Of a DNA stretch of 64,000 nucleotides, positions 9,669-47,386 are shown piece after piece. The notes beneath the pieces were generated by a model, which ran no database searches, was not told the origin of the DNA, and saw nothing but the letters and a program-made list of their open reading frames with translations. Every line of letters begins with the position of its first letter. Within the stretch, counting starts at the first letter, position 1. This DNA comes from Minisyncoccota bacterium (GTDB taxonomy: Bacteria; Patescibacteriota; Minisyncoccia; Phycocordibacterales; UBA2100): positions 40,719 to 104,718 of the forward strand of contig DASSSZ010000005.1 in NCBI GenBank assembly GCA_035708165.1, in the 5' to 3' direction. Both the position numbers and the translations under genes were made by a program.

Positions 9669-9726
9669 ATAACTCCGGCTCATGGGTGCGGTTTTTGTTT
9701 GAAGATATTTCAGGTCATACAAAACA

Positions 9727-13936: not shown

Positions 13937-13956
13937 CCTGTGCGGCGCAAAGAAAG

Positions 13957-14251: not shown

Positions 14252-14344
14252 GAAGCTTCTCCTGTGGTAGTGCTAACCGGCGCGAGCGTACCATAGCGGC
14301 CGCACGCGCCGCAAGCCTTCGCCGGAGTCCGGTACAATAGGCGC

Positions 14345-33628: not shown

Positions 33629-33732
33629 GCCGGCGCCCATGGCACTTGCCTGCATGAAAGGCACATGCTATGGTTCTGGCTCGCTGGCATCCGCCGGCGA
33701 GTGCAACACCCAACGAAAGGGATACATTGCAA

Positions 33733-34227
33733 ATGCGTTTTCGTTCTTTGGCATCCGCCGCTATCCTGATTGCTTCCGCTGCCTTCGCCATGCCGGCCCT
33801 GGCCGCGTCCCCGTCGACCAATATCGTGATCGACACGGGCGCGAGCAAGGTGCTGCAGGCGAACCTGAGCGGCGACGTCGGCGATACGGTGAAGATCGAC
33901 CAGACCAATGCGCTCAATGTCGTCGACCTCACGGGCGACAACATGTCGAACGCCACGGTCAGCGCGTCGGCCGCCAAGGTCATCCAGGCGAACGTGGGCG
34001 TGGGGATCGACCTCAGCTCCGGCATCGTCAAGGATACTCAGACCAATGCGGCCAACGTGGTGGACGCGGTGCTGACGAACGTCGGCAACTCGAGCGTGGA
34101 CAAGGTCAGCGCGACCATGCACAAGGTCGCTCAGGTCAATGTCGGCGTGAATCTCCCGCTCATGGGCGGCACCGCCGTCTCCGACCAGGTCAATGCCGGC
34201 AACATCGTTTCCGTCAAGATCAAATAA
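33733..34227 (+). CDS. secreted Q/N/V-rich protein with three imperfect curlin-like ~40-aa repeats
   Basis: Signal peptide (AAFAMPALAAS) is present. The repeats are KVLQANLSGDVGDTVKIDQTNALNVVD, KVIQANVGVGIDLSSGIVKDTQTNAANVVD and KVAQVNVGVNLPLMGGTAVSDQVNAGNIV. The track ORF 33670.. is an extension. Confidence 0.5.
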   Translation: MRFRSLASAAILIASAAFAMPALAASPSTNIVIDTGASKVLQANLSGDVGDTVKIDQTNALNVVDLTGDNMSNATVSASAAKVIQANVGVGIDLSSGIVKDTQTNAANVVDAVLTNVGNSSVDKVSATMHKVAQVNVGVNLPLMGGTAVSDQVNAGNIVSVKIK

Positions 34228-34239
34228 GGTCGCATCTCC

Positions 34240-34273
34240 GAGCCTCGGCATCTGCCGAGGCTCTCCTTTTTAT
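34240..34273 (+). terminator. rho-independent terminator (gagcctcggca tc tgccgaggctc + tcctttttat)
   Basis: 11-bp perfect stem plus T5. Confidence 0.7.
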
Positions 34274-34449: not shown

Positions 34450-36624
34450 ATGGCACGAGATTATCCGCTTGAGAAAGTCCGCAATTTCGGCATCGTCGCG
34501 CACGTGGATGCCGGCAAGACCACCACGTCCGAGCGCATCCTCTTCTATACGGGCATGAGCCACAAGATCGGCGAGGTGCACGAGGGCGGCACCATCACCG
34601 ACTGGATGGAGCAGGAGCGCGAGCGCGGGATCACCATCACCGCCGCTGCCATCACCTGCTTCTGGACGCCTACGTATGCGCGCCTCGGCGCGGACAACGT
34701 CGCGCAGGCGACCGACGGGCAGAACCCGAAGCGCCACCGCTTCAATATCATCGACACCCCGGGGCACATCGACTTCACCTCCGAGGTGCAGCGCTCGATG
34801 CGCGTCCTCGACGGCGCGATCGTGGTGTTCGACGGCGTGGCCGGCGTGGAGCCGCAGTCCGAGACTAACTGGCGCTACGCCGAAGAGGCGAGCGTGCCGC
34901 GGCTGTGCTTCATCAACAAGCTCGACCGAACCGGTGCATCCTTCGAGCGCTCCTTCAAGAGCATCCGCGAGCGCCTCTCGAAGAATGCGTACCGCATGCA
35001 GCTGCCGGTCGGCGAGGAAGCCAACTTCGACGGCGAGGTGGACCTGCTCACGCGCAAGATGTTCGTCAACTCAGGCGCGATGGGCGAGATCGTCACGATG
35101 GCCGACGCGCCGGAGTCCATGAAGGACGATATCGAGACGTACCGCGCCGAGCTGATCGAGAAGATCGTGGAGCAGGACGAGGCCGCGATGAACGCGTACC
35201 TCGAGGGCAATGAGCCTGATCTCGACACGCTGAAGGCGCTCCTGCGCAAGGCCGTGATCGCCAATGAGATCTTTCCGGTCTACTGCGGCGCGTCGCTGAA
35301 GAACCGCGGCGTGCAGCCGATCCTCGATGCGGTCATCGACTACCTGCCGTCCCCTCTGGACGTGCCGGCAGCGAAGGGCGTCAATCCGGACACCGGCGAG
35401 GAGGAGTTCCGCGAGGCATCTGACGAAGCGCCGTTCTCCGCGCTCGCGTTCAAGCTCCAGACGGACCCGTTCGTGGGGCAGCTCACGTTCATCCGCGTGT
35501 ACTCGGGCAAGCTCGAGAGCGGCGGCTATGTCTACGATGCCAATAACGGCAAGAAGGAGCGCGTCGGCCGCATCGTGCGCCTGCAGGCGGACAAGCGCGA
35601 GGAGATCAAGGAGATCTACGCAGGCGAGATCGCCGGCCTCGTGGGCATGAAGGAGGTGAAGATCGGCCATACGCTCTGCGACGAGACGCACCCGATCCAC
35701 CTCGAAGAGATCAATTTCAAGCAGCCGGTCATCTCGATGCGCATCGAGCCGAAGACCAAGGCGGACCAGGAGAAGATGGGCATCGCGCTCAACAAGCTCA
35801 CCGACGAGGACCCGACGCTGCGCGTGACGACTGACCCGGAGACGATGGAGACTATCCTCTCGGGCATGGGCGAGCTGCACCTCGAGATCATCGTGGATCG
35901 CATGAAGCGCGAGTTCGGCGTCGAAGCGACGACCGGCAAGCCGCAGGTGGCGTACCGCGAGACCATCCAGGGTACTGCCGATAAGGAGGTGAAGTACATC
36001 AAGCAGACGGGCGGTCGCGGCCAGTACGGCCACGTGAAGCTCCGCGTGAAGCCGCTCGAGCCGCTTGCCGAGGGCGCGAAGATCCCGAACAACGTCCATC
36101 GCGAGGACCACTTCGAGTTCATCAACAGCATCAAGGGCGGCGTCATCCCGGCTGAGTACATCCCGGCAGTAGAGAAGGGGGTGCGCGAGTCCCTGACCCG
36201 CGGCGTTCTCGCCGGCTTCCCGATCGTGGACGTCTCGGTCGAGCTCTACGACGGCTCGTATCACGAGGTGGACTCTTCGGAGATCGCCTTCAAGATCGCA
36301 GGCTCGCAGGCATTCCAGGAAGCGGCAGCGGCAGCGCGGCCGGTCCTCCTCGAGCCGATCATGAAGCTCGAGGTCGTGACGCCGGAGAAGTTCCTCGGCG
36401 ACGTGAACGGATCGATCAGCAGCAAGCGCGGCGTCGTGGAGCGCATGGACGCGCGCGGCAATGATACGGTGATCGACGCGAAGGTCCCGCTCTCCGAGCT
36501 CTTCGGCTACACCACGCAGCTGCGCTCGATGACGGAAGGCCGCGCGACGCCGGTCATGGAATTCGACCACTATGCGGTCGTCCCGAAGAACGTCGCGGAC
36601 GAAGTGATCGCTACGAAGCGATAA
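34450..36624 (+). CDS. fusA: elongation factor G
   Basis: NFGIVAHVDAGKTTTSERIL, DTPGHIDF and the full five-domain EF-G length. It is preceded by TTGCAA-17-TACTCT and a T5-containing leader. Confidence 0.95.
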   Translation: MARDYPLEKVRNFGIVAHVDAGKTTTSERILFYTGMSHKIGEVHEGGTITDWMEQERERGITITAAAITCFWTPTYARLGADNVAQATDGQNPKRHRFNIIDTPGHIDFTSEVQRSMRVLDGAIVVFDGVAGVEPQSETNWRYAEEASVPRLCFINKLDRTGASFERSFKSIRERLSKNAYRMQLPVGEEANFDGEVDLLTRKMFVNSGAMGEIVTMADAPESMKDDIETYRAELIEKIVEQDEAAMNAYLEGNEPDLDTLKALLRKAVIANEIFPVYCGASLKNRGVQPILDAVIDYLPSPLDVPAAKGVNPDTGEEEFREASDEAPFSALAFKLQTDPFVGQLTFIRVYSGKLESGGYVYDANNGKKERVGRIVRLQADKREEIKEIYAGEIAGLVGMKEVKIGHTLCDETHPIHLEEINFKQPVISMRIEPKTKADQEKMGIALNKLTDEDPTLRVTTDPETMETILSGMGELHLEIIVDRMKREFGVEATTGKPQVAYRETIQGTADKEVKYIKQTGGRGQYGHVKLRVKPLEPLAEGAKIPNNVHREDHFEFINSIKGGVIPAEYIPAVEKGVRESLTRGVLAGFPIVDVSVELYDGSYHEVDSSEIAFKIAGSQAFQEAAAAARPVLLEPIMKLEVVTPEKFLGDVNGSISSKRGVVERMDARGNDTVIDAKVPLSELFGYTTQLRSMTEGRATPVMEFDHYAVVPKNVADEVIATKR

Positions 36625-36677: not shown

Positions 36678-36733
36678 CACAGCAAGCGGACGATGAGGAA
36701 AACGATAGGGTGTGCGTTTGCTATGATAGTGGC

Positions 36734-37174
36734 ATGCCGCCCGTCACTGAGATGCATGAGGAGAAGCCGCTCATGCGGCATGTGATCCAGCTCCTGATCG
36801 TACTTGTCGCGCTCATCTGCGCTGGCGTGCTCGCGTACCTCACGCAGCGCTATCTGTACAGCCGTACCGTCTCGGGCACTCCAGGCGCGACAGCCGACTA
36901 CTCGACGACCACTCCGGAGGAGCTGACGCTCCAGCAGAAGATGGAGGTGCTGCAATCGCTCGAGTCAGGCAAGGCATCGGGTACGGGCACGCAGGTCACG
37001 GGAGTAGCTTCCGGGACAGTGTCATCCGAGGGGAATGAGGCTCCCGCAAATGATGCGCGCACGCAGACGCTCGATCAGCTCGATGCGCAGCAGCAACAGC
37101 AGCAGGGCGACGATGGCGATGACTCCGGCATGAGCGCGCAAGAGAAGCTTAACCTCCTGAACTCGCTCCACTAA
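36734..37174 (+). CDS. membrane-anchored low-complexity protein with polyQ
   Basis: TM helix LLIVLVALICAGVLAYL. An S/T/G-rich region and QQQQQQ from a CAG/CAA tract at ~37088-37105 follow. Confidence 0.45.
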   Translation: MPPVTEMHEEKPLMRHVIQLLIVLVALICAGVLAYLTQRYLYSRTVSGTPGATADYSTTTPEELTLQQKMEVLQSLESGKASGTGTQVTGVASGTVSSEGNEAPANDARTQTLDQLDAQQQQQQGDDGDDSGMSAQEKLNLLNSLH

Positions 37175-37179
37175 TACGT

Positions 37180-38124
37180 ATGACGGCCCGTCGCACCAAG
37201 AAGAAATCGAACGAGCAATACGCGGTGCTGCTCAAGCAGCTGGGCGGTCTCATCGCGGTGACGATCCTGATCGCCGCTGCAACCGCGTTCATCTCCGCGA
37301 CGCCGCGCCACGCCTCCGCGACCGGCGACCCAGCCCTTTCCGGCTATCTATGGAGCGATACGATCGGCTGGATCAGCCTCAGCTGTACCAATACCGGCAC
37401 CTGCGGCACGCACAATTACGGCATGTCGATGGCCAGTTCCGGCGCACTTTCCGGCTATGGCTGGAGCGATAGCATCGGCTGGGTATCCGCCAATCCTTCC
37501 GATACCTCTGTCTGCGGCAGCCAGGCGACAGTGAGCACGAGCGGATCGGTCACCGGCTGGTTACGCGCGATTTCCGGCGGCACCTCGCAATCCGGCGGCT
37601 GGAACGGCTGCATCTCCCTCTCCGGGAGCGGCTATGGCGTGACATTCAATACGGCGAACGGCGCATTCGGCGGCTATGGCTGGGGTGACACGAATGTCGG
37701 CTGGGTGGATTTCTCCAAGGCGAGCGCTGTAGCATCGTGTACGCCGCAGAATATCTGCATCGGCAATAGCACGTACAATCAGAACGCCTATTGCCAGCAG
37801 ACGCTCATAAAGACGTGTGCTGGCACGTGCAGCAATGGCATCTGCTCGGAAGACCTGCCGCCGCCCACAGGAACGCTCATCGTCGCGCCGACCTTGGTGC
37901 GCGAAGGCATGAGCACGCAGGTCTCCTGGGATTCTGATGAGGCGTACGCCTGCCAGGTGACCGGCAGCAACGGCGATTCCTGGAGCGGTACGAGCGGGAC
38001 GAAGACGAGCAGTCCGATTACCGATACGGTCACGTATACGCTCTCATGCAAGAACGATGGCGGCAGCATGTCGGTCATCAAGAAGGTGAGTGTCTACCTC
38101 GTCCCGGTTTACCACGAGATCTGA
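37180..38124 (+). CDS. membrane-anchored surface protein with three LSGY-W-D-IGW repeats and a Cys-rich C-terminal domain
   Basis: The three repeats are LSGYLWSDTIGWISLS, LSGYGWSDSIGWVSAN and FGGYGWGDTNVGWVDFS. An N-terminal TM anchor and 14 Cys are present. Confidence 0.5.
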   Translation: MTARRTKKKSNEQYAVLLKQLGGLIAVTILIAAATAFISATPRHASATGDPALSGYLWSDTIGWISLSCTNTGTCGTHNYGMSMASSGALSGYGWSDSIGWVSANPSDTSVCGSQATVSTSGSVTGWLRAISGGTSQSGGWNGCISLSGSGYGVTFNTANGAFGGYGWGDTNVGWVDFSKASAVASCTPQNICIGNSTYNQNAYCQQTLIKTCAGTCSNGICSEDLPPPTGTLIVAPTLVREGMSTQVSWDSDEAYACQVTGSNGDSWSGTSGTKTSSPITDTVTYTLSCKNDGGSMSVIKKVSVYLVPVYHEI

Positions 38125-38292
38125 TCGCGGGATCTCCCGAAACGGCTGCACTATCGCTGAGCGATGGTACGCGTTACTGTGCTGGCGCGCATGCTGGTGG
38201 CATGCATACGGCCCGGAAGCGTATAGTGCAGTTATCCCCAACGCGAGATGCATGCGCCGGCAAAGGAAACTCATGCGCGGTACACTAAACGC

Positions 38293-40089
38293 ATGTTGAA
38301 ATCTCACATGCCGACACGTCGTGAGTTCTTCCTCCTCGCATTCCTCTTCGCCTACACCATCGCCTTCAGCGGCGTCGTCCTCGCCTGGACTGGCCCGACT
38401 GCGAGCGCGCCATCGAACAACGTCTCTGCCCCGATCAATGTCGGCTCAACCGCTCAGATCAAGACGGGCGGGTTCTGGGCCTCTTCCATCGGTTCGGATT
38501 CCGGCTACTGCATCGGCAGCTCGTGCATCACGAGCTGGCCGTCCGCGAGCACTGATCTCTGGACTAAGAGCGGATCGAGCATCTATTACAACACTGGCAA
38601 CGTCGGCATCGGCGTCACGAGCCCGTACTTCGCGCTGCAAGTCGATCAACCGTCCGCGACAGGCGGCGGCATCGCAGTCTCCACGAGCGGCCAGGATGGT
38701 AGTGCGCTCAATGGTATCAGTAACAGATATTCATATACACAGACCTCAAGCGCCACCCGGTACCCGATCGGGAATGCCAATTCCATTTACGCTAAGATCG
38801 CTTCCGGCGTGACGAACTCCGGCTACGTGATGGGTATTGACGACACGATCCTGCGCAACTACGCCGCGAATAGTGCCGATGACGGCACCCTCGCGAGTCT
38901 CATCGGCGAGCGCATCCAGTATGGCCACTACAATGTCGATCCGGGTTCGACACCGGTGACGACCGCTGCGATCGGCATCGAGATCAATCCGCTCGCATAC
39001 ACCGGCTCGATCGGCACCATGTATGACCTTCTCCTCTCCGGATCGAGCGGGAGCGATTTCGGGACGCACTACGGCATCTACCAGTCAGGCTCAGCGTTGA
39101 ACTATTTCGGAGGGAAGGTCGGCATCGGTACCTCGAATCCCAGCGCCACCCTCGACGTCAACGGCACTGCAGTCATTGGCCGCCCTTCGGATTATTGGGC
39201 TACCAGCGGCTTTTATGGTGTCAGTGGCTTAGGTCAGCTCAGCACGGACGGCTCTTATGAGACCTCCCTCACTTCAAACGGCTATCGTAACTCGAGCGGC
39301 ACCTGGACCTCTTACGGTGCGAATGGCTACACTGGTGCCTCTCAGATCGCCCTCAGTCCGCAGGGCTACATCGACTTTCGTGCCGACACATCGAAAGCTT
39401 CAGGTAGTGCGACTCACCCTGACACGGTCATGCGGATTACGCCTGCGGGGAGTGTGGGAATTGGCACCGCTTCGCCTGGCACCAAGCTCACCGTCGCTGG
39501 TGAGATCACGTCCACGAACGCCAACGCATTCCGCATGGCCTACGGCAACTACGGCGCATTCTGGCGCAACGACGGCAGCAATACCTACTTCCTCCTCACG
39601 AACTCGGGCGATCAGTACGGCACGTGGAACTCCCTGCGGCCGCTTACCATCAACGATTCGAGCGGGGCAGTGACGGTCGGGACAGGCCTTACGGTGAGCG
39701 GGAATGTCTCCGCAAGCGCCTTCCTCTATACCTCCGACCAGTCCCTCAAGCACAATGTGCAGACGATTCCCGACGCGCTCTCGCTGGTCGAGAAGCTGCG
39801 TGGCGTGATGTTCAACTGGAACAGCGATGATCGTCCCGATATGGGTGTGATTGCGCAGGAGGTGCAGAAGGTCCTCCCGCAGCTCGTGCACACCGATGCG
39901 GCGACCGGACTCGAATCAGTCGAATACGGCAACTTCATCGGCATTTTCATCGAGGCGATCAAGCAGGTGCAAGGAGAGGTGACGAATCTTCAGCAAGAGA
40001 ATGCGCAATTGACGCAGCAGAATGCGCAGCTCACGCAGGAAGTGCAATCGCTCGATGCACGTGTTTCAGCGCTTGAAGCGGCACGGTAG
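38293..40089 (+). CDS. tail-fibre-like surface protein with C-terminal peptidase-S74-type intramolecular chaperone domain and terminal coiled-coil
   Basis: C-terminal SDQSLKHNVQTIPDALSLVEKLRGVMFNWNSDDRPDMGVIAQEVQKVLPQLVHTDAATGLESVEYGNFIGIFIEAIKQVQ matches the endosialidase/tail-spike chaperone domain pattern (SD..K.NI..l...L..l...Y.w......GviAQEv..v.PelV). An N-terminal TM anchor is present. Confidence 0.65.
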   Translation: MLKSHMPTRREFFLLAFLFAYTIAFSGVVLAWTGPTASAPSNNVSAPINVGSTAQIKTGGFWASSIGSDSGYCIGSSCITSWPSASTDLWTKSGSSIYYNTGNVGIGVTSPYFALQVDQPSATGGGIAVSTSGQDGSALNGISNRYSYTQTSSATRYPIGNANSIYAKIASGVTNSGYVMGIDDTILRNYAANSADDGTLASLIGERIQYGHYNVDPGSTPVTTAAIGIEINPLAYTGSIGTMYDLLLSGSSGSDFGTHYGIYQSGSALNYFGGKVGIGTSNPSATLDVNGTAVIGRPSDYWATSGFYGVSGLGQLSTDGSYETSLTSNGYRNSSGTWTSYGANGYTGASQIALSPQGYIDFRADTSKASGSATHPDTVMRITPAGSVGIGTASPGTKLTVAGEITSTNANAFRMAYGNYGAFWRNDGSNTYFLLTNSGDQYGTWNSLRPLTINDSSGAVTVGTGLTVSGNVSASAFLYTSDQSLKHNVQTIPDALSLVEKLRGVMFNWNSDDRPDMGVIAQEVQKVLPQLVHTDAATGLESVEYGNFIGIFIEAIKQVQGEVTNLQQENAQLTQQNAQLTQEVQSLDARVSALEAAR

Positions 40090-40099
40090 TTTAGGGGGC

Positions 40100-41317
40100 A
40101 TGATCGGTTTCGATTCTCAGCAACATGCCATATCACGACGATTCCTACGTCTGAGAGCGTGCAGGCTCTTTATCGGCAAGATTCTCTCCCTAGCCCTCAG
40201 TATCATCGTGGCGGTCGGCATACTGCCGATTCCTGCATCAGCGGCGAGCGGCTCGCAGTCCTACACGACTCCGGGGACGTATACGTTCACCATACCGGCG
40301 AACTACACGTCGCTCACCGTGCAGGTGTGGGGAGGTGGAGGCGGCGGAGGTGCATTGGGCGGCGGAGGCGGCGGCGCATACAATACGAAGACATTCGCTG
40401 CAGGCGCGTTGTCGGGATCGGTGACAGTGACGGTGGGTGCCGGCGGCGCCGGCATGCCGTTCGACTCGTACACGTCTGGCGGTGTGACTGGCGGCACGAG
40501 TAGCTTCGGATCGTATGTTGCTGCCTATGGCGGCGGAGGAGGAGGAGCCGGTTCGAATTCGGCGTATGCCGGTGCCGGCGGCGGCGGACAAAGCGCTGCG
40601 GGCCAGATCGGAGGGTACACGTCCGGCGGCGCGGGCGGCAGTCCGTCCGGCGGCGCGGGCGGCGCATCATCGATAGGTGGTAGCAAGCAGGCTCAGACGA
40701 CCGCTCAGCCTGGAGGTAATTCCGTATATGGCGGCGGAGGCGGTGGCGGCATAGCTATCAATTCTATCTCGAATGGCGCAGCGGGTGGCTCCTCGACGTA
40801 CGGCGGCGGAGGCGGCGGAGGCTTCGGGGGCGCCAATAGTTCGGGCGCAGGCGGCTCCTCGACCTACGGCGGAGGCGGTGGCGGGGCAGGGGAGGATAAC
40901 AACGGCGCGCACGCGGGTGCGGGTGGCTACTCGACGAGCGGCGGCGCTGGAGGTGCGGGCTGCAACCTGACCAGTTCTCTCGCTGTCATTTCTCCTGCGC
41001 AGTCCGGTTACTTCCCGGCGGGCGGAGGCGGAGGCGGATACAGGCAGAGCTGTGTCGGCGGCAATGGCGCAGGCGGCGAAGTCGTCATCACCTGGACCGC
41101 TTCGAACTGCCCGACGGCCATCACATCCGCAGCGGGCGGTAAGGGATTCCAGCTCCTCGCGAACATCGCGAATCGGCTGATCAGCGCCGTCGGCATCAAT
41201 ACATGCGTCACGAACACCACCGGCAACAGCTACTTCATCCCTTCGAATACCGCAGCTGAACTGCAGAGCTTCCTGAACGCGGCCTCCCGCCTCGGCGTGA
41301 CGGTGTTCACACCGTAG
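40100..41317 (+). CDS. secreted glycine-rich-domain protein (TFTIPANYTSLTVQVWGGGGGGG motif)
   Basis: RBS AGGGGG is present. A signal/anchor is followed by long G-rich repeats (GGGGGG.. SSTYGGGGGG). The C-terminal module NTTGNSYFIPSNTAAELQSFLN is shared with the N-terminus of 42280..43029. Confidence 0.55.
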   Translation: MIGFDSQQHAISRRFLRLRACRLFIGKILSLALSIIVAVGILPIPASAASGSQSYTTPGTYTFTIPANYTSLTVQVWGGGGGGGALGGGGGGAYNTKTFAAGALSGSVTVTVGAGGAGMPFDSYTSGGVTGGTSSFGSYVAAYGGGGGGAGSNSAYAGAGGGGQSAAGQIGGYTSGGAGGSPSGGAGGASSIGGSKQAQTTAQPGGNSVYGGGGGGGIAINSISNGAAGGSSTYGGGGGGGFGGANSSGAGGSSTYGGGGGGAGEDNNGAHAGAGGYSTSGGAGGAGCNLTSSLAVISPAQSGYFPAGGGGGGYRQSCVGGNGAGGEVVITWTASNCPTAITSAAGGKGFQLLANIANRLISAVGINTCVTNTTGNSYFIPSNTAAELQSFLNAASRLGVTVFTP

Positions 41318-41459
41318 CGAGTTACCCACAGGCACTCCCTGTCATCCCCTCAATGCGGTGTCGCGGTCGGCTCTCGATGAGCATCTAGTGCTGCACGTCT
41401 GCTCATTCCTGTGCACATTCCGCATCAATCGACCGGAAATAGGCGGGTATACTAGAGAC

Positions 41460-42299
41460 ATGATGCTCGTGGTTCCTGAGGTGGGCGATGTATCGCGATG
41501 TGCCGGCGCACGCGCATCGCGCGGCGAAATTCGCACGGAGCTGCTGGCGTTTGTCGGGCTGTGCATCGCGCTCTGCCTCGTCGGTCTAGCATACTATGCC
41601 TCCCAGTATCGGCAGGGGGCATCGGCGGCCGCATCTTCTGCGGCTTCCCATGATACGACCGCGCTGGCGCTCTCGTCGACTGAAGTGAGCACCTCCTCAT
41701 TGCCGGCGACCTTCGCGCCTGCGAGCGACACGGTGACCCTCTACGAATTCGATTCATTCGATCCATCCTGCACCTCGTGCGCAGGCGTGCATGCAGCGGT
41801 CATGGCGGCGGTCGCGTCCCTGCCGAGCAGCGCGGTGTATCATTTCCGCGCGTACCCGATCGCACGTCCGCTCTCGGACGATGCGTCCTCGACGCCAGTG
41901 TTCGATCCGCGCGACATCCTGGGGCTGTGCATCGCCTCGGCCACACAGGCGCAAGGTGATGGTGCGATCCTCGCGTATGCCGCAGCTGCATACGCGAGCG
42001 CGAGCGCGACGCCTGATGCGCTTCTGAGCGCGATCCCTGCTGCGGATCGCGATGCGGCGGAGAACTGCGTCGCCGCGATGCCCGAGAACGACATGCCGAT
42101 CACCGATGTGCTCTCACGGTACCAGTACGACCAGGTGCCGAGCGCGCCCGCCGTATTCATCCAGATTCCGGGCGTACCTGATCCGATTTCGATCGGCGCT
42201 GACCCGAAGAACATCGCGGCCGTGCTGCAGTCGCTGGTCGCCGACCCGGCCGGTTTCGCCGCATCGCTGAGGGAGCAATATGAGAAACGTGCGCAGTAG
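41460..42299 (+). CDS. membrane-anchored thioredoxin-fold protein, DsbA-like (CxxC = CTSC), tentative
   Basis: VTLYEFDSFDPSCTSCAGVHAAV resembles the DsbA active-site context (..vEFfsy.CphC). A TM anchor is present. A TATACT -10 lies upstream. Confidence 0.4.
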   Translation: MMLVVPEVGDVSRCAGARASRGEIRTELLAFVGLCIALCLVGLAYYASQYRQGASAAASSAASHDTTALALSSTEVSTSSLPATFAPASDTVTLYEFDSFDPSCTSCAGVHAAVMAAVASLPSSAVYHFRAYPIARPLSDDASSTPVFDPRDILGLCIASATQAQGDGAILAYAAAAYASASATPDALLSAIPAADRDAAENCVAAMPENDMPITDVLSRYQYDQVPSAPAVFIQIPGVPDPISIGADPKNIAAVLQSLVADPAGFAASLREQYEKRAQ

Positions 42300-43029
42300 G
42301 AAATGGCAGCTGTTCTGCCTGTGCGCGGCAGGCGCCGTGCTCGTGCTTGGCGCGCGCGAGGCGTTCGCCATCAATGCGATCTCGGAAGGATTCAAGGTGA
42401 ACGGCACAAGCCAGCAGATCAGCGCCTATAGCAGCTGCTACGAAGCGAATTCGACGAACGGCGCCGCGTATTTCTTTCCGTCGAAGACCTCGACCGAGTT
42501 CAGTTCGTTCGTGAACCACAAGCCCGCAGCCGTGAACCTGAACGCATGTCAGATGCTGACCGGCGGGAAACATACGGCTGTCGACTGCTCCGGAGCCGGG
42601 GGATCGACATTCGACGGCCTCTGCAAATTCGCCGGATCGGTCTGTCCGTCAAGCTGGACAGCTTCCGGCTACGTCGACTGGCCGAGCTTCTCGTGTTCTG
42701 CGGTCTCTTCGTATGTGTGCGATGCGGGCACGCAGTACACCGGACCGACGAGCTGCAGCGGCGGGAGCAGCTTCTCTTCTTCTGGCATCACGCCTTCCTG
42801 CTCGTATGGTTATACCTCGAGCTCGTACGGAGCGTACACCACGTACGGATGGACCAACCCTCCATGCGGGTATCAAGACGTCTGCGGCGGGTTCCCGTAT
42901 AGCTGCACGCTTCAATATGTGTGCCCGGCCCCTGTATACGGGCCCATCACGGCGTATGGAGAGATTTGCTCGCCAGTGTCGGAGACCTGCAGAGAGCCAT
43001 ATGCTCCAAGCGCGATTTATTGCGAATAG
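42280..43029 (+). CDS. secreted Cys-rich protein (about 25 Cys)
   Basis: Signal peptide is present. The N-terminal module AAYFFPSKTSTEFSSFVN is similar to the C-terminus of 40100..41317. The C-terminal half is Cys/Tyr/Ser/Gly-rich. Confidence 0.5.
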   Translation: MRNVRSRKWQLFCLCAAGAVLVLGAREAFAINAISEGFKVNGTSQQISAYSSCYEANSTNGAAYFFPSKTSTEFSSFVNHKPAAVNLNACQMLTGGKHTAVDCSGAGGSTFDGLCKFAGSVCPSSWTASGYVDWPSFSCSAVSSYVCDAGTQYTGPTSCSGGSSFSSSGITPSCSYGYTSSSYGAYTTYGWTNPPCGYQDVCGGFPYSCTLQYVCPAPVYGPITAYGEICSPVSETCREPYAPSAIYCE

Positions 43030-43096
43030 ATCTCACCGAGATACGTTATCAACAAGCGGGCGCCGGCGAATGGCCGCCGTGGTGTAATCTAATGGC

Positions 43097-44902
43097 ATGA
43101 ATAGTAACGGTAATGATGGCATGCACTCATTGCGCCGCTCCCTCGCCGGGCTTTCAGGCCGCAGCAACCTCTTCCTCCTCGCATTCCTCTTCGCCTACAC
43201 CATCGCCTTCAGCGGCGTCGTCCTCGCCTGGACCGGCCCCACGGCAAGCGCGCCATCGAACAACGTCTCTGCGCCGGTCAATGTCGGTGCGACGAGCCAA
43301 ATCAAAACCGGCGGCTTCTGGGCTTCTTCTATCGGCTCCGACAATGGCTACTGCATCGGTAGCTCGTGCATCACCTCGTGGCCCTCTGGCCTTGGCGGCT
43401 CGGGATCGACGAACTATGTCCCGAAGTTCACTGCCGGCACGACCTTGGGCAATTCGCTTATCTCCGACAATGGTTCGACGGTCGTCGTGCACGGTACTGG
43501 CAACACCACGACCTGGGCATTCGAAGGCTTGGGTGGCTATGAAGGCGTCTACGGCTCTGGGACCAACATCGGCCTCTATGGCGCCACGTCGGGCAGTACC
43601 GGCGGCTGGGCGATCGAAGGCGTCGGCAGCAACACCTCGAGCAATGGCATCTACGGGCAGGGAACCAATGTCGCGACGGAAGCATACAACCCGACGAGCG
43701 GCAGCCGTGTCTATCTTGGCTACGGGAACTATGGCATCTACTCCAGTGCGCCGACTAACTACTTCAGCGGCAACGTCGGGATCGGCGATTCCTCGCCCTC
43801 GACCGATCTCGACGTGGCGGGCGATATCTGGACGTCAGCGGCAGGCAGCGGCCGCAGCTCGTTCTATGACCTGGCTGGTGGCAAGATCGCCGCAGGCTCG
43901 AGCCTCTATTCGTACGGCGACATCTGCACCGGCAACAACAGCGGCGCGTGCACTGGTACGGGCGGCGTCGTGATCGGCAATACGAATGCATCCGCTGCGG
44001 TGAACGTCACGAATGCCGGTACTATCCGCACGAACGGAGAAGTGCAATCCGCTTCAGCGAACGCCTTCCGCATGGTCTACGGCAACTACGGCGCCTTCTG
44101 GCGCAATGACGGTTCGAATACTTACTTCCTTCTCACCAATTCCGGTGATCAATATGGCACCTACAATTCGTTGCGTCCGCTCTGGATTAATGATGCGAAT
44201 GGGAGTGTCGGGATCGGTACGTCGTTGAGTGTGCCGAGCATCAAATTCTCTGATGGTACGACGCAGACGACGGCAGCGACCGGAGGGAATTCGCATGCGC
44301 AGATATTCACCTCAAGCGGTACCTGGACGAAGCCTTCCGGAGTCAATGTGGTTATCGCGCAATGCTGGGGCGGTGGAGGTGGTGGACTGTCCGATCCGAG
44401 TTATCACCAGGTTGATGCTGGCGGTGGTGGCGGAGGATATCTTGAAATGACGTTTGCTGCGTCTCAAATCGCCTCATCAGTAGCGGTTACGGTGGGCGGC
44501 GGCGGTGCGGGGACAACCTCGAGTGGACAGACTGCCTATGCCGGCAATGGTGGTACGTCAAGTTTCGGACCCTATCTCTCCGTGCAGGGCGGGAGCGGTG
44601 CTTACCACATCACTAATAATAGCGCATGGACTCCTGGGGCTGGTGGTGGCGGCGGGCTCTATGGTCCGGGGAATGGCGGATCCGGTGCATCTGGCCAGTC
44701 GGGCTCGACGATGGCAGTTGGGGCAGGGGCTTCGGCATTCGGTGGTGGTGGCGGTGGTGGTGGGACCACGGTTTCTAGCGGAGGAACATCTCAGAATGGA
44801 GGAGCCGGCGGAGCGGACGGTTATGCTGGTGCTGCACCAGGCGGCGGCGGAGGTGGCGGTGCATCGGGTGCCCGCGGGGAGTGCATCATTTACTCCTACT
44901 AG
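43097..44902 (+). CDS. tail-fibre-like surface protein, mosaic paralog of 38293..40089 with C-terminal glycine-rich domain (TWTKPSGVNVVIAQCWGGGGGG motif)
   Basis: The N-terminal ~85 aa are near-identical to 38293 gene, and a shared central block is ANAFRM.YGNYGAFWRNDGSNTYFLLTNSGDQYGT. The C-terminus is G-rich like 40100 gene. Confidence 0.6.
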   Translation: MNSNGNDGMHSLRRSLAGLSGRSNLFLLAFLFAYTIAFSGVVLAWTGPTASAPSNNVSAPVNVGATSQIKTGGFWASSIGSDNGYCIGSSCITSWPSGLGGSGSTNYVPKFTAGTTLGNSLISDNGSTVVVHGTGNTTTWAFEGLGGYEGVYGSGTNIGLYGATSGSTGGWAIEGVGSNTSSNGIYGQGTNVATEAYNPTSGSRVYLGYGNYGIYSSAPTNYFSGNVGIGDSSPSTDLDVAGDIWTSAAGSGRSSFYDLAGGKIAAGSSLYSYGDICTGNNSGACTGTGGVVIGNTNASAAVNVTNAGTIRTNGEVQSASANAFRMVYGNYGAFWRNDGSNTYFLLTNSGDQYGTYNSLRPLWINDANGSVGIGTSLSVPSIKFSDGTTQTTAATGGNSHAQIFTSSGTWTKPSGVNVVIAQCWGGGGGGLSDPSYHQVDAGGGGGGYLEMTFAASQIASSVAVTVGGGGAGTTSSGQTAYAGNGGTSSFGPYLSVQGGSGAYHITNNSAWTPGAGGGGGLYGPGNGGSGASGQSGSTMAVGAGASAFGGGGGGGGTTVSSGGTSQNGGAGGADGYAGAAPGGGGGGGASGARGECIIYSY

Positions 44903-45185: not shown

Positions 45186-46382
45186 ATGGCAGCAGATTTC
45201 GACCGTTCGAAGCCGCACGTCAACGTCGGCACCATCGGCCACGTCGACCACGGCAAGACCACGCTGACCGCCGCGATCCTCCACGTCATCAGCATGATGG
45301 GCGAGGGCTACGGCGCGAACGTGAAGGGTGTCGACCAGATCGACAACGCCCCGGAGGAGCGCGAGCGCGGCATCACCATCGCGCTTTCGCACAACGAGTA
45401 CTGGACGCCGACCCGCCACTACGCGCACATCGATGCGCCGGGTCACGCGGACTATATCAAGAACATGATCACGGGTGCCGCCCAGATGGACGGCGCGATC
45501 CTCGTGGTCGCCGCGACTGACGGCGCCATGCCGCAGACGCGCGAGCACATCCTCTTGGCTCGCCAGGTCGGCGTGCCGAAGATCATCGTCTTCCTCAACA
45601 AGGTGGACATGGTCGACGACGCCGACATGATCGACCTCGTGGAAGAGGAGATCCGCGATCTCCTCGGGAAGCAGGAGTTCGACAAGGACTGCCCTGTCAT
45701 CCGCGGCTCGGGCCTCAAGGCGCTCGAGGCATCGAGCATCGATGACGAGTGGGCGCAGAAGGTCGCCGAGCTCGTGAAGACGATGGATGAGTACATCCCG
45801 ACTCCGGAGCGCGACACGGCCAAGCCGTTCCTCATGCCGATCGAGGACATCTTCTCGATCGAGGGCCGCGGCACCGTCGTGACCGGCCGCATCGAGCGCG
45901 GCGTCGTGAAGACGGGCGAGGAAGTCGAGATCGTGGGCATCAAGCCGACGACCAAGACGACCGTGACCGGCATCGAGATGTTCAACAAGCAGCTCTCGGA
46001 GGGGCAGGCTGGCGACAACGCCGGCATCCTCCTGCGCGGCACCAAGAAGGAGGACGTGCATCGCGGCCAGGTCCTGGCAGCGACCGGCTCCGTCAAGCCG
46101 CACACCGAGTTCGAGGCCGAGGTCTACGTCCTCTCGAAGGATGAGGGCGGCCGCCACACCCCGTTCTTCAGCGGGTACAAGCCGCAGTTCTACCTGCGCA
46201 CCACGGACGTGACCGGCGAGGTGACCCTGGCCGATGGCGTCGAGATGGTCATGCCGGGCGACACCGCGACCTTCAAGGTCAAGCTCGTGGGCCCGGTGGC
46301 GCTTGAGGAGCAGCAGCGCTTCGCGATCCGCGAAGGCGGCCGCACCGTCGGCGCCGGCGTCATCACCAAGATCGTCGCCTAA
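45186..46382 (+). CDS. tuf: elongation factor Tu
   Basis: [20 protein letters not shown]... Full-length EF-Tu. Promoter TTGACG-17-TAGTAT lies at 44983-45011. The track ORF 45135.. is an extension. Confidence 0.95.
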
Positions 46383-46414: not shown

Positions 46415-46765
46415 ATGGCAACCGCACCCAAGACCGCACGCAAAGCAGCCGCTTCGAGCGGGCCGCGCCTGCGCATCACTGTCCGCGCGTACGAGCACCG
46501 GGTGCTGGATGCATCCGTGAAGCAGATCATCGACACGGCGGCGCGCTATTCCGCGACCGTCGTCGGGCCGGTGCCGCTGCCGACGGACATCAGGAAGTAC
46601 ACCGTGAACCGCTCGACTTTCGTCCACAAGGACGCACGAGAACAGTTCGAGATGCGCGTGCACAAGCGCCTGATCGACATCCTCAACCCCGAGGCAAAGG
46701 TGATCGAAGCGCTCTCTAACATCGATCTCCCGTCCGGTGTCTCCATCGACGTGAAGATGATGTAA
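46415..46765 (+). CDS. rpsJ: 30S ribosomal protein S10
   Basis: LRITVRAYEHRVLD...VVGPVPLPT...HKDAREQFEMRVHKRLIDI conserved uS10. Confidence 0.95.
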   Translation: MATAPKTARKAAASSGPRLRITVRAYEHRVLDASVKQIIDTAARYSATVVGPVPLPTDIRKYTVNRSTFVHKDAREQFEMRVHKRLIDILNPEAKVIEALSNIDLPSGVSIDVKMM

Positions 46766-46921
46766 TCGGAGCTTCGCTCCATGAAACGCCACCGCTCAAT
46801 GCGGTGGCGTTTCGTTCACGGCAGCTGCATGGTGCATCGGGCAGGATGGGGCAAGAGCAGCATTTCACGAAGCGAGCGCATGGCGAGCACGGATCGCATC
46901 GCGCACGAGAGGGAGGCATGC

Positions 46922-47386
46922 ATGGTTCATTACCCGGTCATCGACTGTTCGGCGGTACCGTCCGTACCGGACGGCTTGCGTATCCTGCCCCGCGACTGGC
47001 AGCTTCCCGGACGGATACGGGACACCATACGGTGGCACCCACTGCGCGCGGACCTGTTCCAGACCGCACTGCAGCGGGAGGGGATACCGGTTTCCGGGCA
47101 GTACTTGCTCGGCGAGCTGCAGGATGAGCCGGTGCTCCCGGCATCCGTCCTGGATGCGTTCCTCGCGACAGGGTTCGAGGGCGTGCCTGCGACCTGGAAA
47201 CCGATGCGGGAGCCGCGCCCGATCATCTGCTTCTACGGGACCATCTATGCGAGCAGGGAAACGCAGGAGGGCATGGACGCGGGCGTGCGCTGCATCACCT
47301 GGCGGCGTGCCCGATGGGAGGAGGAGTATCGTCCGCTCAGCGAGCCGTTCGGGCAGGATATGTTCGCAGCGACGTGGTTCGGCTGA
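46922..47386 (+). CDS. hypothetical protein inserted between rpsJ and rplC (low confidence)
   Basis: 154-aa ORF (MVHYPVIDC...) with coding-like composition. It fills part of a 780-bp gap that is normally absent between S10 and L3. A terminator-like hairpin follows at ~47391-47422. Confidence 0.3.
   Translation: MVHYPVIDCSAVPSVPDGLRILPRDWQLPGRIRDTIRWHPLRADLFQTALQREGIPVSGQYLLGELQDEPVLPASVLDAFLATGFEGVPATWKPMREPRPIICFYGTIYASRETQEGMDAGVRCITWRRARWEEEYRPLSEPFGQDMFAATWFG

What the first reader, a model, noticed from the sequence alone, without database searches (positions are those of the whole stretch)
36734..44902. ~8-kb surface-protein cluster between fusA and tuf: tail-fibre-like proteins, glycine-rich domains, DsbA-like oxidoreductase and Cys-rich protein
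The cluster holds six consecutive same-strand genes, all with signal/anchor sequences:
- a polyQ membrane protein;
- a GW-repeat Cys-rich protein;
- a tail-fibre-like protein ending in a peptidase-S74-type intramolecular chaperone domain plus coiled-coil;
- a Gly-rich-domain protein;
- a membrane-anchored CxxC thioredoxin-fold protein;
- a 25-Cys secreted protein;
- a second tail-fibre-like paralog with a Gly-rich C-terminus.
The co-located DsbA-like gene would supply disulfide formation for the Cys-rich partners. The ensemble looks like a phage-tail-fibre-derived or pilus-tip adhesin toolkit for attachment to another cell. If the adhesins are functional, it is potentially a new host-recognition system.
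Basis: partly seen in the sequence, partly recalled or inferred. Interest (0 to 1): 0.8.

Follow-up and report, generated by a model that had tools for sequence, protein, structure and literature searches.

The report
Exported phage-fibre-like adhesin locus in CPR
An ultra-small, probably host-attached bacterium carries, wedged between two core translation genes, secreted proteins built like phage tail fibres next to a conserved partner gene pair, most likely its kit for gripping other cells.

Summary
Seven (not six) same-strand genes lie between fusA and tuf in a Candidatus Paceibacterota (CPR) genome, and each has one N-terminal hydrophobic segment. P3 and P7 are true phage-tail-fibre homologues. 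Both carry a Gp34/Mu-type knob; P3 adds a Peptidase_S74 chaperone with an SDxxxK motif and a coiled coil, and P7 a Gly_rich_2 tip. P4 is a Gly_rich_2 protein. P5 misses every sequence profile but folds as DsbA, with its CxxC at the start of the helix that follows strand 1. P6 has 18 Cys, not 25.

It is not a prophage. The flanks are housekeeping genes, and the layout recurs across Paceibacteria. There, a small membrane protein (P1) and a Pfam-less GW-repeat/Ig-like protein (P2) form a conserved pair. In 58 of 80 species this pair directly adjoins genes that share P3/P7's leader: a signal peptide followed by WTGPTxxPPxGNVxAPINVGxxxQxK. Their tips vary (S74, Gly-rich, collagen, Ig-like, GP38, C1q). 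The pair often sits between fusA and tuf.

Best reading: a CPR counterpart of the Bdellovibrio MAT surface fibres, with P1-P2 as candidate anchor. Surface location, trimer formation and binding are inferred, not shown.

The parts
36734..37174 (+). P1: a 146-aa bitopic membrane protein with an N-terminal TM segment, a Q6 run and two C-terminal repeats of the x-[EQ]-[EQ]-K-[LM]-x-[VIL]-L-x-S-L type. It is the conserved upstream partner of P2.
   Evidence: A small TM ORF with 2-3 EEKLxILxSL repeats ends next to the start of the P2 homologue in most of the 51 (of 83) related loci that have a small N-terminal-TM ORF there. A TAnnnT-N6-ATG motif lies at its start.
37180..38124 (+). P2: a 314-aa protein with an N-terminal TM or signal segment (about residues 12-39), a beta-rich domain with three GYAWSDxIGW(I/V)S repeats and conserved Cys (about 37339-37716), and a C-terminal Ig-like domain (about 37867-38100). 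It ends in a conserved P-x-F-x-E-x tail. It is the core conserved gene of the locus and a candidate anchor or platform.
38293..40089 (+). P3: a 598-aa exported tail-fibre-like protein of the S74 type. It has a signal peptide with predicted cleavage at A31|W32, the N-module (38386-38544), a shaft with GxVGIG repeats, a Gp34/Mu-type knob (39466-39651), a Peptidase_S74 chaperone (39733-39891, SDQSLK at 39733-39750) and a coiled coil (39943-40080).
   Evidence: Identical to an NCBI 'tail fiber domain-containing protein' (P0001).
40100..41317 (+). P4: a protein of about 405 aa with an N-terminal hydrophobic segment, a Gly_rich_2 domain (40265-41095) and a C-terminal CxxN..YFIPxxTxxELxxF motif domain (about 41054-41293). 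It starts 10 nt after the P3 stop and is likely co-translated with P3.
   Evidence: Gly_rich_2, 3.4e-11. (phrog_863, 1.3e-19). for the C-terminal motif. for an SD-like GGGGG before the ATG at 40100.
41463..42299 (+). P5: a 278-aa membrane-anchored protein with a DsbA-like predicted fold. The CxxC (CTSC) lies at 41769-41780, preceded by an invariant D-P. A candidate cis-Pro loop lies further on, in 'SAPAVFIQ'.
   Evidence: No Pfam or NCBIfam hit. Only two remote relatives among 1.8 billion representatives. Those relatives share DPxCxxC..H and the later Pro. AF2 model pLDDT 75.7 overall and about 85-92 over most of the folded domain, with beta-alpha-beta, a helical insert and beta-beta-alpha. 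Nearly all of the top 50 Foldseek PDB hits are DsbA-type or related thiol-disulfide oxidoreductases, E down to 9e-5.
42280..43029 (+). P6: a 249-aa secreted Cys-rich protein (18 Cys). Its N-terminal region shares the YF[FI]PSxTxxE motif with the P4 C-terminus. The gene overlaps the end of P5 by 20 nt.
   Evidence: N-terminal similarity to ORFs lying between P2 and tuf in L015 and L024. No Pfam or PDB hit.
43097..44902 (+). P7: a 601-aa exported tail-fibre-like protein of the non-S74 type. Its signal peptide plus N-module (43229-43387) is 91% identical to that of P3. It has a Gp34/Mu-type knob (43985-44188) and a Gly_rich_2 tip (44318-44890).
   Evidence: DNA direct repeats with P3 at 38327-38543 / 43170-43386 (86%) and 39520-39683 / 44057-44220 (75%).
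34450..36624 (+). fusA (EF-G), the upstream boundary of the locus.
   Evidence: translation. Used as a synteny marker.
45186..46382 (+). tuf (EF-Tu), the downstream boundary. S10 follows at 46415-46765.
   Evidence: Synteny.

Best explanation
The locus encodes exported cell-surface fibres of a Candidatus Paceibacterota (CPR) bacterium, built from phage tail-fibre parts, together with a conserved partner gene pair.

Proposed mechanism:
1. P3 and P7 are made with a Sec-type signal peptide. Signal peptidase cleavage after a nearly invariant Ala is predicted to expose the conserved mature N-terminus WTGPTxxPPxGNVxAPINVGxxxQxK, here called the N-module.
2. The chains trimerise through the Gp34/Mu-type knob. 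In P3 the C-terminal S74 intramolecular chaperone also assists, and it then cuts itself off at Ser481 of SDQSLK.
3. The N-module holds the fibre at the cell surface. The swappable distal parts (the post-S74 tip of P3, the Gly_rich_2 tip of P7) bind ligands on another cell.
4. The adjacent conserved pair P1 (bitopic membrane protein) and P2 (membrane-tethered GW-repeat plus Ig-like protein) is the best candidate for the surface element that receives the N-module.
5. P3-P4 and P5-P6 are lineage-specific cargo. P4 is a Gly-rich accessory or second tip protein. P5 is a DsbA-like oxidoreductase that may oxidise the Cys-rich exported proteins of the locus (P2, P4, P6 and the CIGSSC loop of the fibres).

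Shown here: domain identities, export signals, family-wide gene neighbourhood, mosaic tips and the non-prophage context.
Inferred: signal-peptide cleavage, trimer formation, surface display, the P2/N-module interaction, the P5 substrates and the adhesive role.
For: Fibre identity
- Pfam: Gp34_trimer at 98 bits in both P3 and P7, Peptidase_S74 at 57 bits in P3, Gly_rich_2 in P4 and P7.
- PHROGs: many tail-fibre families, with E-values down to 4e-39.
- PDB: phage Mu fibre 5yvq (2e-24) and T4 gp34.
- The SDxxxK motif is present in P3.

Export
- All seven proteins have one N-terminal hydrophobic segment.
- In 169 N-module proteins, position -1 is Ala in 97% and position -3 is V/A/L/I/S in 93%. These are followed by the conserved WTGP...Q.K sequence.

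Not a prophage
- Annotated flank genes are housekeeping or uncharacterised: S12, S7, CofD, fusA | tuf, S10, L3, SecY, type IV pilus genes, ComEC and others.
- Neither P2 nor the N-module has a relative in IMG/VR viral contigs.

Conserved system
- The P2 family occurs in 553 GTDB loci.
- 66 of 80 P2 loci hold N-module genes, and 58 of these are directly adjacent.
- In the reverse test, 33 of 80 metagenome loci chosen only by the N-module DNA pattern hold a P2-family ORF.
- A small TM ORF with P1-type EEKLxILxSL repeats lies just upstream of P2 in most of the 51 of 83 loci that have a candidate ORF there.
- The order fusA < P2 < tuf is seen in 15 loci, with 11 more partial and consistent.

Mosaic tips
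- Among 142 N-module proteins: S74 in 21, Gly_rich_2 in 14, collagen in 8, Ig-like matches 11 (Big_7 4, Big_13 4, Big_3_3 3), GP38 in 2, C1q in 1, dockerin in 1. Judging from these low counts, most have no Pfam match.

Precedent
- The Bdellovibrio MAT fibres have S74 and non-S74 subfamilies, a conserved N-terminal domain after the signal peptide, variable tips and a still unknown surface anchor (PMC10769870).

P5
- DsbA-like predicted fold with the CxxC at the N-terminus of the helix that follows strand 1.
Against: - There is no direct evidence for surface location, trimerisation or binding. No multimer prediction could be run.
- The P2/N-module interaction rests only on gene neighbourhood.
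- About 40% of longer N-module loci show a P2 gene in the held sequence, so fibres are also encoded away from P2.
- The P2 GW-repeat domain has no informative structural match. Its role could be something else, such as cell-wall binding or an envelope structural role.
- Cluster GC3 (0.66-0.79) is well below that of the neighbouring translation genes (0.82-0.93). The genes therefore need not share the neighbours' high expression, and the fibre genes may be recent imports.
- P5 has only two remote relatives, and no DsbB/VKOR partner was sought.
- The episymbiotic lifestyle of this particular organism is assumed from relatives.
Confidence: 0.6

Rival explanations
1. The cluster is a prophage, tailocin or contractile-injection-system tail-fibre module, intact or decayed, that inserted between fusA and tuf. 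The fibres would be virion or particle components, not cell-surface proteins.
For: - The domains are typical of phage fibres.
- GC3 is lower than in the flanks.
- Close knob homologues occur in E. coli prophage fibres.
Against: - No capsid, terminase, portal, sheath, tube, baseplate or integrase gene was found among the ORFs annotated across the 64-kb window.
- Both fibres and all their neighbours carry N-terminal export signals.
- The same layout of fusA, P1-P2, N-module genes and tuf recurs in many species, with variable cargo.
- P2 and the N-module are absent from IMG/VR viral contigs.
Confidence: 0.04
2. P1-P2 and the N-module proteins are structural parts of the organism's own envelope, such as an S-layer-like coat, wall-bound fibrils or a cell-wall maintenance complex. 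They would not be host-recognition adhesins. P2's aromatic GW hairpin repeats would bind the cell's own wall polymers.
For: - P2 is strongly conserved at 40-50% identity, full length, across many Paceibacteria lineages. That fits a housekeeping envelope role.
- It is embedded in the str/S10 operon region.
- In the complete Kaiserbacteria genome the same locus carries two PG_binding_1 proteins.
- The GW repeats loosely recall cell-wall-binding repeats (my own recollection, not tested).
Against: - The tips are the kind used for ligand recognition and are highly mosaic between species (S74, GP38, C1q, collagen, dockerin, Ig-like). That is unusual for a purely structural coat.
- No Pfam cell-wall-binding family matches P2.
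- The two readings are not exclusive: P2 could bind the wall and also hold the fibres.
Confidence: 0.2
3. The N-module proteins are subunits or tip adhesins of a pilus, either the type IV pilus encoded about 25 kb upstream or a new pilus type. The conserved N-terminus would serve in polymerisation.
For: - Type IV pilus ATPase, platform and minor-pilin-like genes lie at 10.9-18 kb in the window.
- Two N-module proteins in related loci carry Shufflon_N (PilV-type) domains.
- Conserved N-terminus with variable C-terminus is the pilin pattern.
Against: - There is no prepilin peptidase motif (G|FxxxE).
- The hydrophobic segment is variable, and conservation starts after it. This is the opposite of pilins.
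- The -3/-1 residues fit signal peptidase I.
- The bodies are trimeric phage-fibre domains.
- N-module genes cluster with P1-P2, and no pilus genes were noted there.
Confidence: 0.06

Closest known systems
Bdellovibrio bacteriovorus MAT (mosaic adhesive trimer) fibre superfamily (Caulton et al. 2024, Nat Microbiol, PMC10769870)
   Same: - Both are cellular rather than virion proteins built from phage tail-fibre modules.
- Both have a signal peptide followed by a family-wide conserved N-terminal region.
- Both split into S74-terminated and non-S74 subfamilies, with the SDxxxK motif in the S74 members.
- Both have mosaic, swappable tips that include TNF/C1q-like domains.
- Both occur in organisms that must grip other cells.
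- The surface element that holds the N-terminus is unidentified in Bdellovibrio. Here a conserved neighbouring gene pair offers a candidate.
   Different: - The N-terminal module here is short, with about 30-55 conserved residues (WTGPTxxPPxGNVxAPINVGxxxQxK). The MAT domain is a beta-rich region of about 130 aa. Homology between the two was not testable, because no full-length Bd MAT sequence was available.
- The proteins here are shorter, about 200-800 aa against about 1000 aa.
- The host is a CPR cell, taken here as single-membraned (my own knowledge), rather than a Gram-negative predator.
- The genes here cluster with P1-P2 and often sit inside the str/S10 operon region. No such feature appears in the passages of the MAT paper that I read.
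Phage long tail fibres with the Gp34/Mu-S 'knob' (T4 gp34, PDB 4uxe/5nxf; Mu tail fibre S, PDB 5yvq; R-pyocin-type fibres)
   Same: The knob domain is about 60% identical over about 84 aa to Mu S, and there are strong Pfam Gp34_trimer hits in both P3 and P7. The shaft carries GxVGIG-type repeats.
   Different: Phage fibres lack signal peptides and attach to baseplates. Here there is an export signal, no baseplate or other virion gene, and a different conserved N-terminus.
Peptidase_S74 intramolecular chaperone domains (endosialidase K1F, T5 L-shaped fibre pb1, MyRF)
   Same: The Pfam hit is above the gathering score. The SDxxxK Ser-Lys motif is present, and the domain sits at the C-terminal end of a fibre.
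   Different: The domain is followed by a coiled coil of about 45 aa. Self-cleavage was not tested.
DsbA-family thiol-disulfide oxidoreductases (e.g. Neisseria DsbA3 3dvx, S. aureus DsbA 3bci, M. tuberculosis DsbA 4jr6)
   Same: The predicted fold is a thioredoxin fold with a helical insertion. The CxxC lies at the N-terminus of the first helix, and there is a candidate cis-Pro loop. The protein is membrane-anchored and extracytoplasmic.
   Different: There is no detectable sequence-profile membership. The active site is CTSC, TM-scores are only about 0.4-0.6, and only two remote relatives exist in 1.8 billion representatives.

Membership tests
Peptidase_S74 (intramolecular chaperone auto-processing domain), P3 | Sequence-profile match above the curated threshold | tested here: met
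   PF13884, 57 bits against a cutoff of 22, E = 2.3e-15, residues 481-533 of the 598-aa form.
Peptidase_S74 (intramolecular chaperone auto-processing domain), P3 | Catalytic Ser-Lys motif SDxxxK at the cleavage site | tested here: met
   SDQSLK at residues 481-486. The motif definition is taken from PMC10769870.
Peptidase_S74 (intramolecular chaperone auto-processing domain), P3 | Autoproteolytic release of the C-terminal domain after trimerisation | not testable with these tools
   This needs recombinant expression, comparing wild type with an S481A mutant.
Phage tail-fibre Gp34_trimer / Mu-S knob, P3 and P7 | Profile match and homology to solved fibre structures | tested here: met
   PF21446 at 98 bits in both proteins. 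PDB 5yvq at 2e-24 and 4uxe at 1.6e-21.
Phage tail-fibre Gp34_trimer / Mu-S knob, P3 and P7 | Homotrimeric fibre architecture | not tested
Prophage / tailocin tail module | Neighbouring capsid, terminase, portal, tape-measure, sheath, baseplate or integrase genes | tested here: not met
   Pfam on 29 flanking and other window ORFs gave only housekeeping, type IV pilus and transport genes or no hit. The layout is conserved across species.
Prophage / tailocin tail module | Fibres lack export signals because they assemble in the cytoplasm | tested here: not met
   P3 and P7 have an N-terminal hydrophobic segment followed by a signal-peptidase-I-type site. This is conserved in 169 family members.
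Bdellovibrio MAT fibre superfamily | Signal peptide followed by an N-terminal region conserved across paralogues | tested here: met
   P3 and P7 are 91% identical over 76 aa. This is met as an architectural feature only.
Bdellovibrio MAT fibre superfamily | Homology of the N-terminal domain to the MAT beta-rich domain of about 130 aa | not testable with these tools
   No full-length Bd MAT sequence or N-domain structure was available. The BALO hits P0061 and P0120 lack an N-terminal leader.
Bdellovibrio MAT fibre superfamily | S74 and non-S74 subfamilies with mosaic adhesive tips | tested here: met
   P3 is the S74 type and P7 the Gly_rich_2 type. Of 142 family members, 21 carry S74, and others carry Gly-rich, collagen, Ig-like, GP38 or C1q domains.
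Bdellovibrio MAT fibre superfamily | Surface display and binding of target-cell glycans | not testable with these tools
   This is experimental only.
DsbA / thioredoxin superfamily, P5 | Sequence-profile membership (Pfam DSBA or Thioredoxin families, NCBIfam) | tested here: not met
   No hit at E <= 1 for P5 or its two relatives.
DsbA / thioredoxin superfamily, P5 | Thioredoxin fold with a helical insertion and the CxxC at the N-terminus of helix 1 | tested here: met
   AF2 model with strand 91-97, CTSC at 103-106 at the start of helix 104-117, strand 124-130, helices 149-219, strands 230-234 and 242-245, then a helix. Nearly all of the top 50 Foldseek PDB hits are DsbA-type or related thiol-disulfide oxidoreductases. 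The model rests on only 3 sequences, and TM-scores are moderate.
DsbA / thioredoxin superfamily, P5 | cis-Pro loop opposite the active site; redox activity; a reoxidising partner (DsbB/VKOR) | tested here: inconclusive
   An invariant Pro (P229) precedes strand 230-234 in all three relatives. Its cis conformation, the redox activity and a partner were not testable, and only 64 kb of the genome was held.
Type IV pilins / pseudopilins, P3 and P7 N-termini | Class III signal peptide (G|F/M-xxxE) with a conserved hydrophobic helix retained in the mature protein | tested here: not met
   There is no such motif. The hydrophobic segment is variable, and conservation begins after it.

The most novel reading that the evidence does not exclude
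P1-P2 together with the N-module proteins would form a previously undescribed surface-fibre display system found across Paceibacteria. A conserved membrane platform (P1 plus the GW-repeat/Ig-like P2, whose GW domain has no counterpart among solved or predicted viral structures) would dock interchangeable, phage-derived trimeric fibres through the cleaved N-terminal peptide WTGPTxxPPxGNVxAPINVGxxxQxK. This would be the main host-recognition apparatus of these episymbionts. In the Kaiserbacteria-like lineages it would be hard-wired into the str/S10 translation operons.
Probability: 0.35. Interest if true: 0.8.

Novelty: new variant of a known kind. Interest (0 to 1): 0.6.

Why it matters
How CPR/Patescibacteria other than Saccharibacteria recognise and hold on to their hosts is essentially unknown. 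Work in cultivated Saccharibacteria points to type IV pili (titles and abstracts listed).

This locus gives concrete, testable candidates:
- a family of exported, phage-fibre-derived proteins with exchangeable tips, which would set host range the way phage fibres do;
- a conserved neighbouring gene pair that may be the missing surface anchor, a component still unidentified even for the Bdellovibrio MAT fibres.

The tip repertoire could be used to predict host associations from metagenomes. The conserved leader is a simple sequence handle for finding such proteins. The placement of adhesin genes inside the fusA-tuf and S10-L3 gaps of the translation operons is an unusual piece of genome organisation.

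Tried and rejected
- The look-up of encoding contigs with window proteins (P3, tuf, P0001) found nothing on record. Two of my tuf coordinates were off by one or more codons.
- The Rfam and tRNA scans of the window were empty.
- P5 found only itself in the word-indexed search and only two remote relatives in the full HMMER search. PDB sequence searches for P2, P4, P5 and P6 gave nothing meaningful.
- The AFDB50 fold library was not available. I used BFVD instead, which gave only weak Ig/FN3-type matches for P2.
I replaced it with a degenerate DNA pattern.
- The promoter/terminator consensus scan over the cluster was not above the shuffled expectation. TAnnnT-N6-ATG is not significantly enriched window-wide, with 13 matches against 7.9 +/- 3.1 expected, although 4 of the 13 sit exactly at the cluster's unit starts.
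- BLASTP between P4 and the P7 Gly-rich tip found nothing, probably because of the composition correction.
- Literature searches for CPR or Patescibacteria combined with tail fibre, intramolecular chaperone or adhesin found no paper describing this family.
- Rejected readings: prophage module, pilin, and 'pilus-tip toolkit'.

Full report
**Source and context**

The window comes from a metagenome-assembled Candidatus Paceibacterota (CPR/Patescibacteria) genome. P3 is 100% identical to NCBI's 'MAG TPA: tail fiber domain-containing protein [Candidatus Paceibacterota bacterium]' on a 178,732-bp contig. P2 and P7 carry the tags VFL98_02955 and VFL98_02980. A Logan contig from run SRR25158513 is 100% identical to window 38361-43199 and breaks inside the sequence that P3 and P7 share. 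GC content is about 64%.

The surroundings are housekeeping genes:
- a TraG-like P-loop protein;
- type IV pilus ATPase and platform genes, with a PilX_N-like ORF (10.9-18 kb);
- TIM, PGK, RecJ, ComEC, SOD, a metallo-beta-lactamase-fold protein and an M50 peptidase;
- S12, S7, CofD, two unknown secreted proteins and fusA;
- after the cluster, tuf, S10, an unknown 201-aa ORF, L3 and onward, then SecY, adenylate kinase and NDK.

No Rfam family or tRNA was found. No phage capsid, terminase, portal, sheath, baseplate or integrase gene was found among the ORFs annotated.

**Checking the observation**

Seven + strand ORFs occupy 36734-44902. Each has exactly one N-terminal hydrophobic segment.

| Gene | Size | Main features |
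|---|---|---|
| P1 | 146 aa | TM segment, Q6 run |
| P2 | 314 aa | three GYxWSDxIGW repeats, 12 Cys, 10 Trp |
| P3 | 598 aa | Gp34_trimer 5e-28; Peptidase_S74 2.3e-15 (57 bits, cutoff 22); coiled-coil tail; SDQSLK at S481 |
| P4 | about 405 aa | Gly_rich_2 3.4e-11 |
| P5 | 278 aa | one CxxC (CTSC); no Pfam or NCBIfam hit |
| P6 | 249 aa | 18 Cys, not 25 |
| P7 | 601 aa | Gp34_trimer 7e-28; Gly_rich_2 4e-10 |

PHROGs places P3, P4 and P7 in tail-fibre families, with E-values down to 4e-39. The knob in P3 and P7 matches solved structures of the phage Mu tail fibre S (5yvq, 2e-24, about 60% identity over 84 aa) and T4 gp34.

**P5**

The word-indexed search found only P5 itself. A full HMMER pass over 1.84 billion representatives found two remote relatives at 22-26% identity. 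Neither has an informative Pfam hit. The three proteins share an invariant D-P-x-C-x-x-C...H motif, two further Cys and a later Pro.

An AF2 model built from this three-sequence alignment has pLDDT 75.7 overall and about 85-92 over most of the folded domain. It shows strand, CxxC-helix and strand, then a helical insertion, then strand, strand and helix. Nearly all of the top 50 Foldseek PDB hits are DsbA-type or related thiol-disulfide oxidoreductases, with E-values down to 9e-5 and TM-scores of about 0.4-0.6 normalised by target. I accept 'DsbA-like fold' with moderate confidence. P5 is not a member by sequence profile, and its substrates are inferred only.

**P2 is the conserved core, not an accessory**

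- P2 has 284 relatives at E <= 1e-3. Those listed are typically 40-50% identical over the full length of about 300-320 aa, and apart from one with an FN3 hit none carries a Pfam domain. The named ones come mostly from Kaiserbacteria and other Patescibacteria.
- A scan of one genome per GTDB species found 553 loci. They include Kaiser-, Adler-, Yonath-, Nomura-, Nealson- and Taylorbacteria.
- Alignments A1 and A3 show invariant Gly and Trp residues in the three repeats, conserved Cys, and a C-terminal tail P-x-F-x-E-x.
- The AF2 model is confident, with pLDDT 89.6. It has a TM helix, a beta-rich GW domain and an Ig-like domain.
- No P2 relative occurs in IMG/VR viral contigs.

**Gene neighbourhood**

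I translated the related loci in six frames and searched them with the window's proteins and with HMMs of P2 and of the fibre leader.

- A small TM ORF with 2-3 EEKLxILxSL repeats, the P1 family, lies directly upstream of the P2 homologue in most of the 51 of 83 loci that have a candidate small TM ORF there.
- 66 of 80 GTDB P2 loci contain at least one ORF with the leader shared by P3 and P7. In 35 loci it lies directly downstream of P2, and in 23 directly upstream of P1-P2.
- That leader is a variable hydrophobic segment, then Ala at -1 (97%) and V/A/L/I/S at -3 (93%), then WTGP[TS]xxPPxGNVxAPINVGxxxQxKxGxL (169 sequences). This is the pattern of a signal-peptidase-I substrate with a conserved mature N-terminus. 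It is not a prepilin.
- As a reverse test, I picked 80 metagenome loci by a degenerate DNA pattern for this leader alone. Of these, 33 contained a P2-family ORF, including 16 of the 38 loci of at least 8 kb. That is far more than chance proximity in genomes of about 1 Mb. It also shows that fibres are encoded at other sites too.
- No N-module relative was found in IMG/VR. Within the window only P3 and P7 carry it.

**Mosaic tips**

Among 142 N-module proteins, Pfam finds the following:
- Peptidase_S74 in 21;
- Gly_rich_2 in 14;
- Collagen in 8;
- bacterial Ig-like families, 11 matches (Big_7 4, Big_13 4, Big_3_3 3);
- GP38 adhesin in 2, Shufflon_N in 2 and Hint in 2;
- C1q in 1 and dockerin in 1.

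Judging from these low counts, most members have no Pfam match. The Gp34 knob occurs only in the window's two proteins.

P3 and P7 are 91% identical over the first 76 aligned residues and similar again in the knob, but otherwise divergent. At the DNA level these regions form two direct repeats, of 217 nt at 86% and 164 nt at 75%. Such repeats could mediate exchange of the segments between them.

**Position in the genome**

- In 15 GTDB loci the order is fusA, P2, tuf, and 11 further partial loci are consistent with it.
- In 4 loci the cluster sits between S10 and L3.
- In 46 loci, mostly more distant lineages, it lies elsewhere.
- An example is the complete Kaiserbacteria genome CP066682. There the order is S12, S7..., fusA, a P1-like gene, P2, two PG_binding_1 proteins, two N-module proteins and tuf.
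- From the ORF coordinates, the fusA-tuf gap ranges from 1.8 kb, apparently with room only for P1-P2 (L030), to 14.4 kb (L024). In the window it is 8.6 kb.

P1-P2 is therefore the constant part and the rest is variable cargo. P5 is a near-orphan, and P6 has weak N-terminal relatives in only two related loci.

**Expression units (inference)**

A -10-like TAnnnT lies exactly 6 nt upstream of the ATG of P1, P3, P5 and P7. These are the four genes preceded by an intergenic gap. P2, P4 and P6 start 5 nt after, 10 nt after or 20 nt before the preceding stop codon. This suggests four short units that may be leaderless: P1-P2, P3-P4, P5-P6 and P7.

The motif is not significantly enriched window-wide, and the generic promoter/terminator scan was uninformative. 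GC3 of the cluster genes is 0.66-0.79, against 0.82-0.93 in the flanking genes. This is compatible with weaker codon selection or more recent acquisition of the fibre genes.

**Interpretation**

Virion fibres are assembled in the cytoplasm and have no export signals (my own knowledge). Here the fibres and all their neighbours have them, no virion genes are present, and the arrangement is conserved across species.

The closest known system is the Bdellovibrio MAT family (PMC10769870). It comprises 21 phage-fibre-like surface proteins with a signal peptide and a conserved N-terminal domain. It has S74 (SDxxxK) and non-S74 subfamilies and mosaic adhesive tips. The surface element that binds its N-terminal domain is still unknown.

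The CPR family described here has the same logic. It differs in having a shorter leader and a conserved neighbouring gene pair, which is the obvious candidate for that missing anchor. I found no paper describing this in CPR.

Surface display, trimerisation, the P2/N-module contact, the P5 substrates and host binding all remain inferred.

**Verdict**

This is a real, non-prophage and evolutionarily conserved locus. The pilus-tip idea is unsupported, and the DsbA link is tentative. I rate it a new variant of a known kind, with interest 0.6.

Noticed in passing
window 10884-18116: Type IV pilus or T2SS genes lie about 20-25 kb upstream of the cluster: an ATPase (T2SSE, 1.5e-120), a platform protein (T2SSF) and a PilX_N-like ORF.
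   Followed up: partly
window 3709-10300: A 523-aa secreted Cys-rich protein with a Q7 run has no Pfam hit. Next to it is a 1066-aa secreted protein with an LCAT/alpha-beta-hydrolase domain. A low-GC stretch (45-50%, at 8.6-10.3 kb) then encodes three small polytopic membrane ORFs, two of which share the motif 'PxAFSWWWKFAIW'.
   Followed up: no
window 32744-34263: Two unknown exported proteins lie between CofD and fusA. One is a 294-aa lipoprotein-like ORF (LAGC signal). The other is a 185-aa ORF with imperfect Q/N-x-N-x-x-N-V-V repeats that look curlin-like. Neither has a Pfam hit. A strong terminator-like hairpin follows at 34240-34263.
   Followed up: no
window 46781-47386: A 201-aa ORF with no Pfam hit sits between S10 and L3. 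In other Paceibacteria, the P2/N-module cluster occupies exactly this S10-L3 gap (L022, L023, L038, L058, L117, L154).
   Followed up: partly
window ~41200-41290 and ~42440-42520; L005, L006, L015, L027, L031, L056, L099, L144: The P4 C-terminus and the P6 N-terminus share a small unannotated motif domain, C-x-[ST]-N-x-x-G-x-x-YF[IV]P-x-x-T-x-x-E[LW]-x-x-F. It recurs, mostly near the C-terminus, in ORFs of related loci.
   Followed up: partly
window 36722-36736, 38281-38295, 41448-41462, 43085-43099 (also 9871, 14333, 31135 and others): A TAnnnT-N6-ATG motif sits exactly at likely start codons, which suggests leaderless transcripts in this organism. It is not significantly enriched overall, with 13 matches against 7.9 +/- 3.1 expected.
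   Followed up: partly
P0080 and P0020 (hits; sequences): Fibre homologues are attributed to DPANN archaeal MAGs. A Pacearchaeota protein starts with the same leader (AWDPPHQTPPGDNAKAPINVGDAPQGK), and an Aenigmarchaeota protein has the knob plus S74. This points to either cross-domain sharing among episymbionts or mis-binning.
   Followed up: no
window 3-1004: A TraG/VirD4-like P-loop domain ORF runs off the 5' end of the window. It may be part of a conjugative or type IV secretion element.
   Followed up: no
L003 (JGI Ga0599168_0000195): In one metagenome contig the P1-P2-S74 fibre trio lies outside the str operon. It sits beside a 2298-aa Ig-like surface protein and a 1254-aa protein, with two phage-type integrases and a Replic_Relax gene nearby. 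This hints that the module can be mobile.
   Followed up: no
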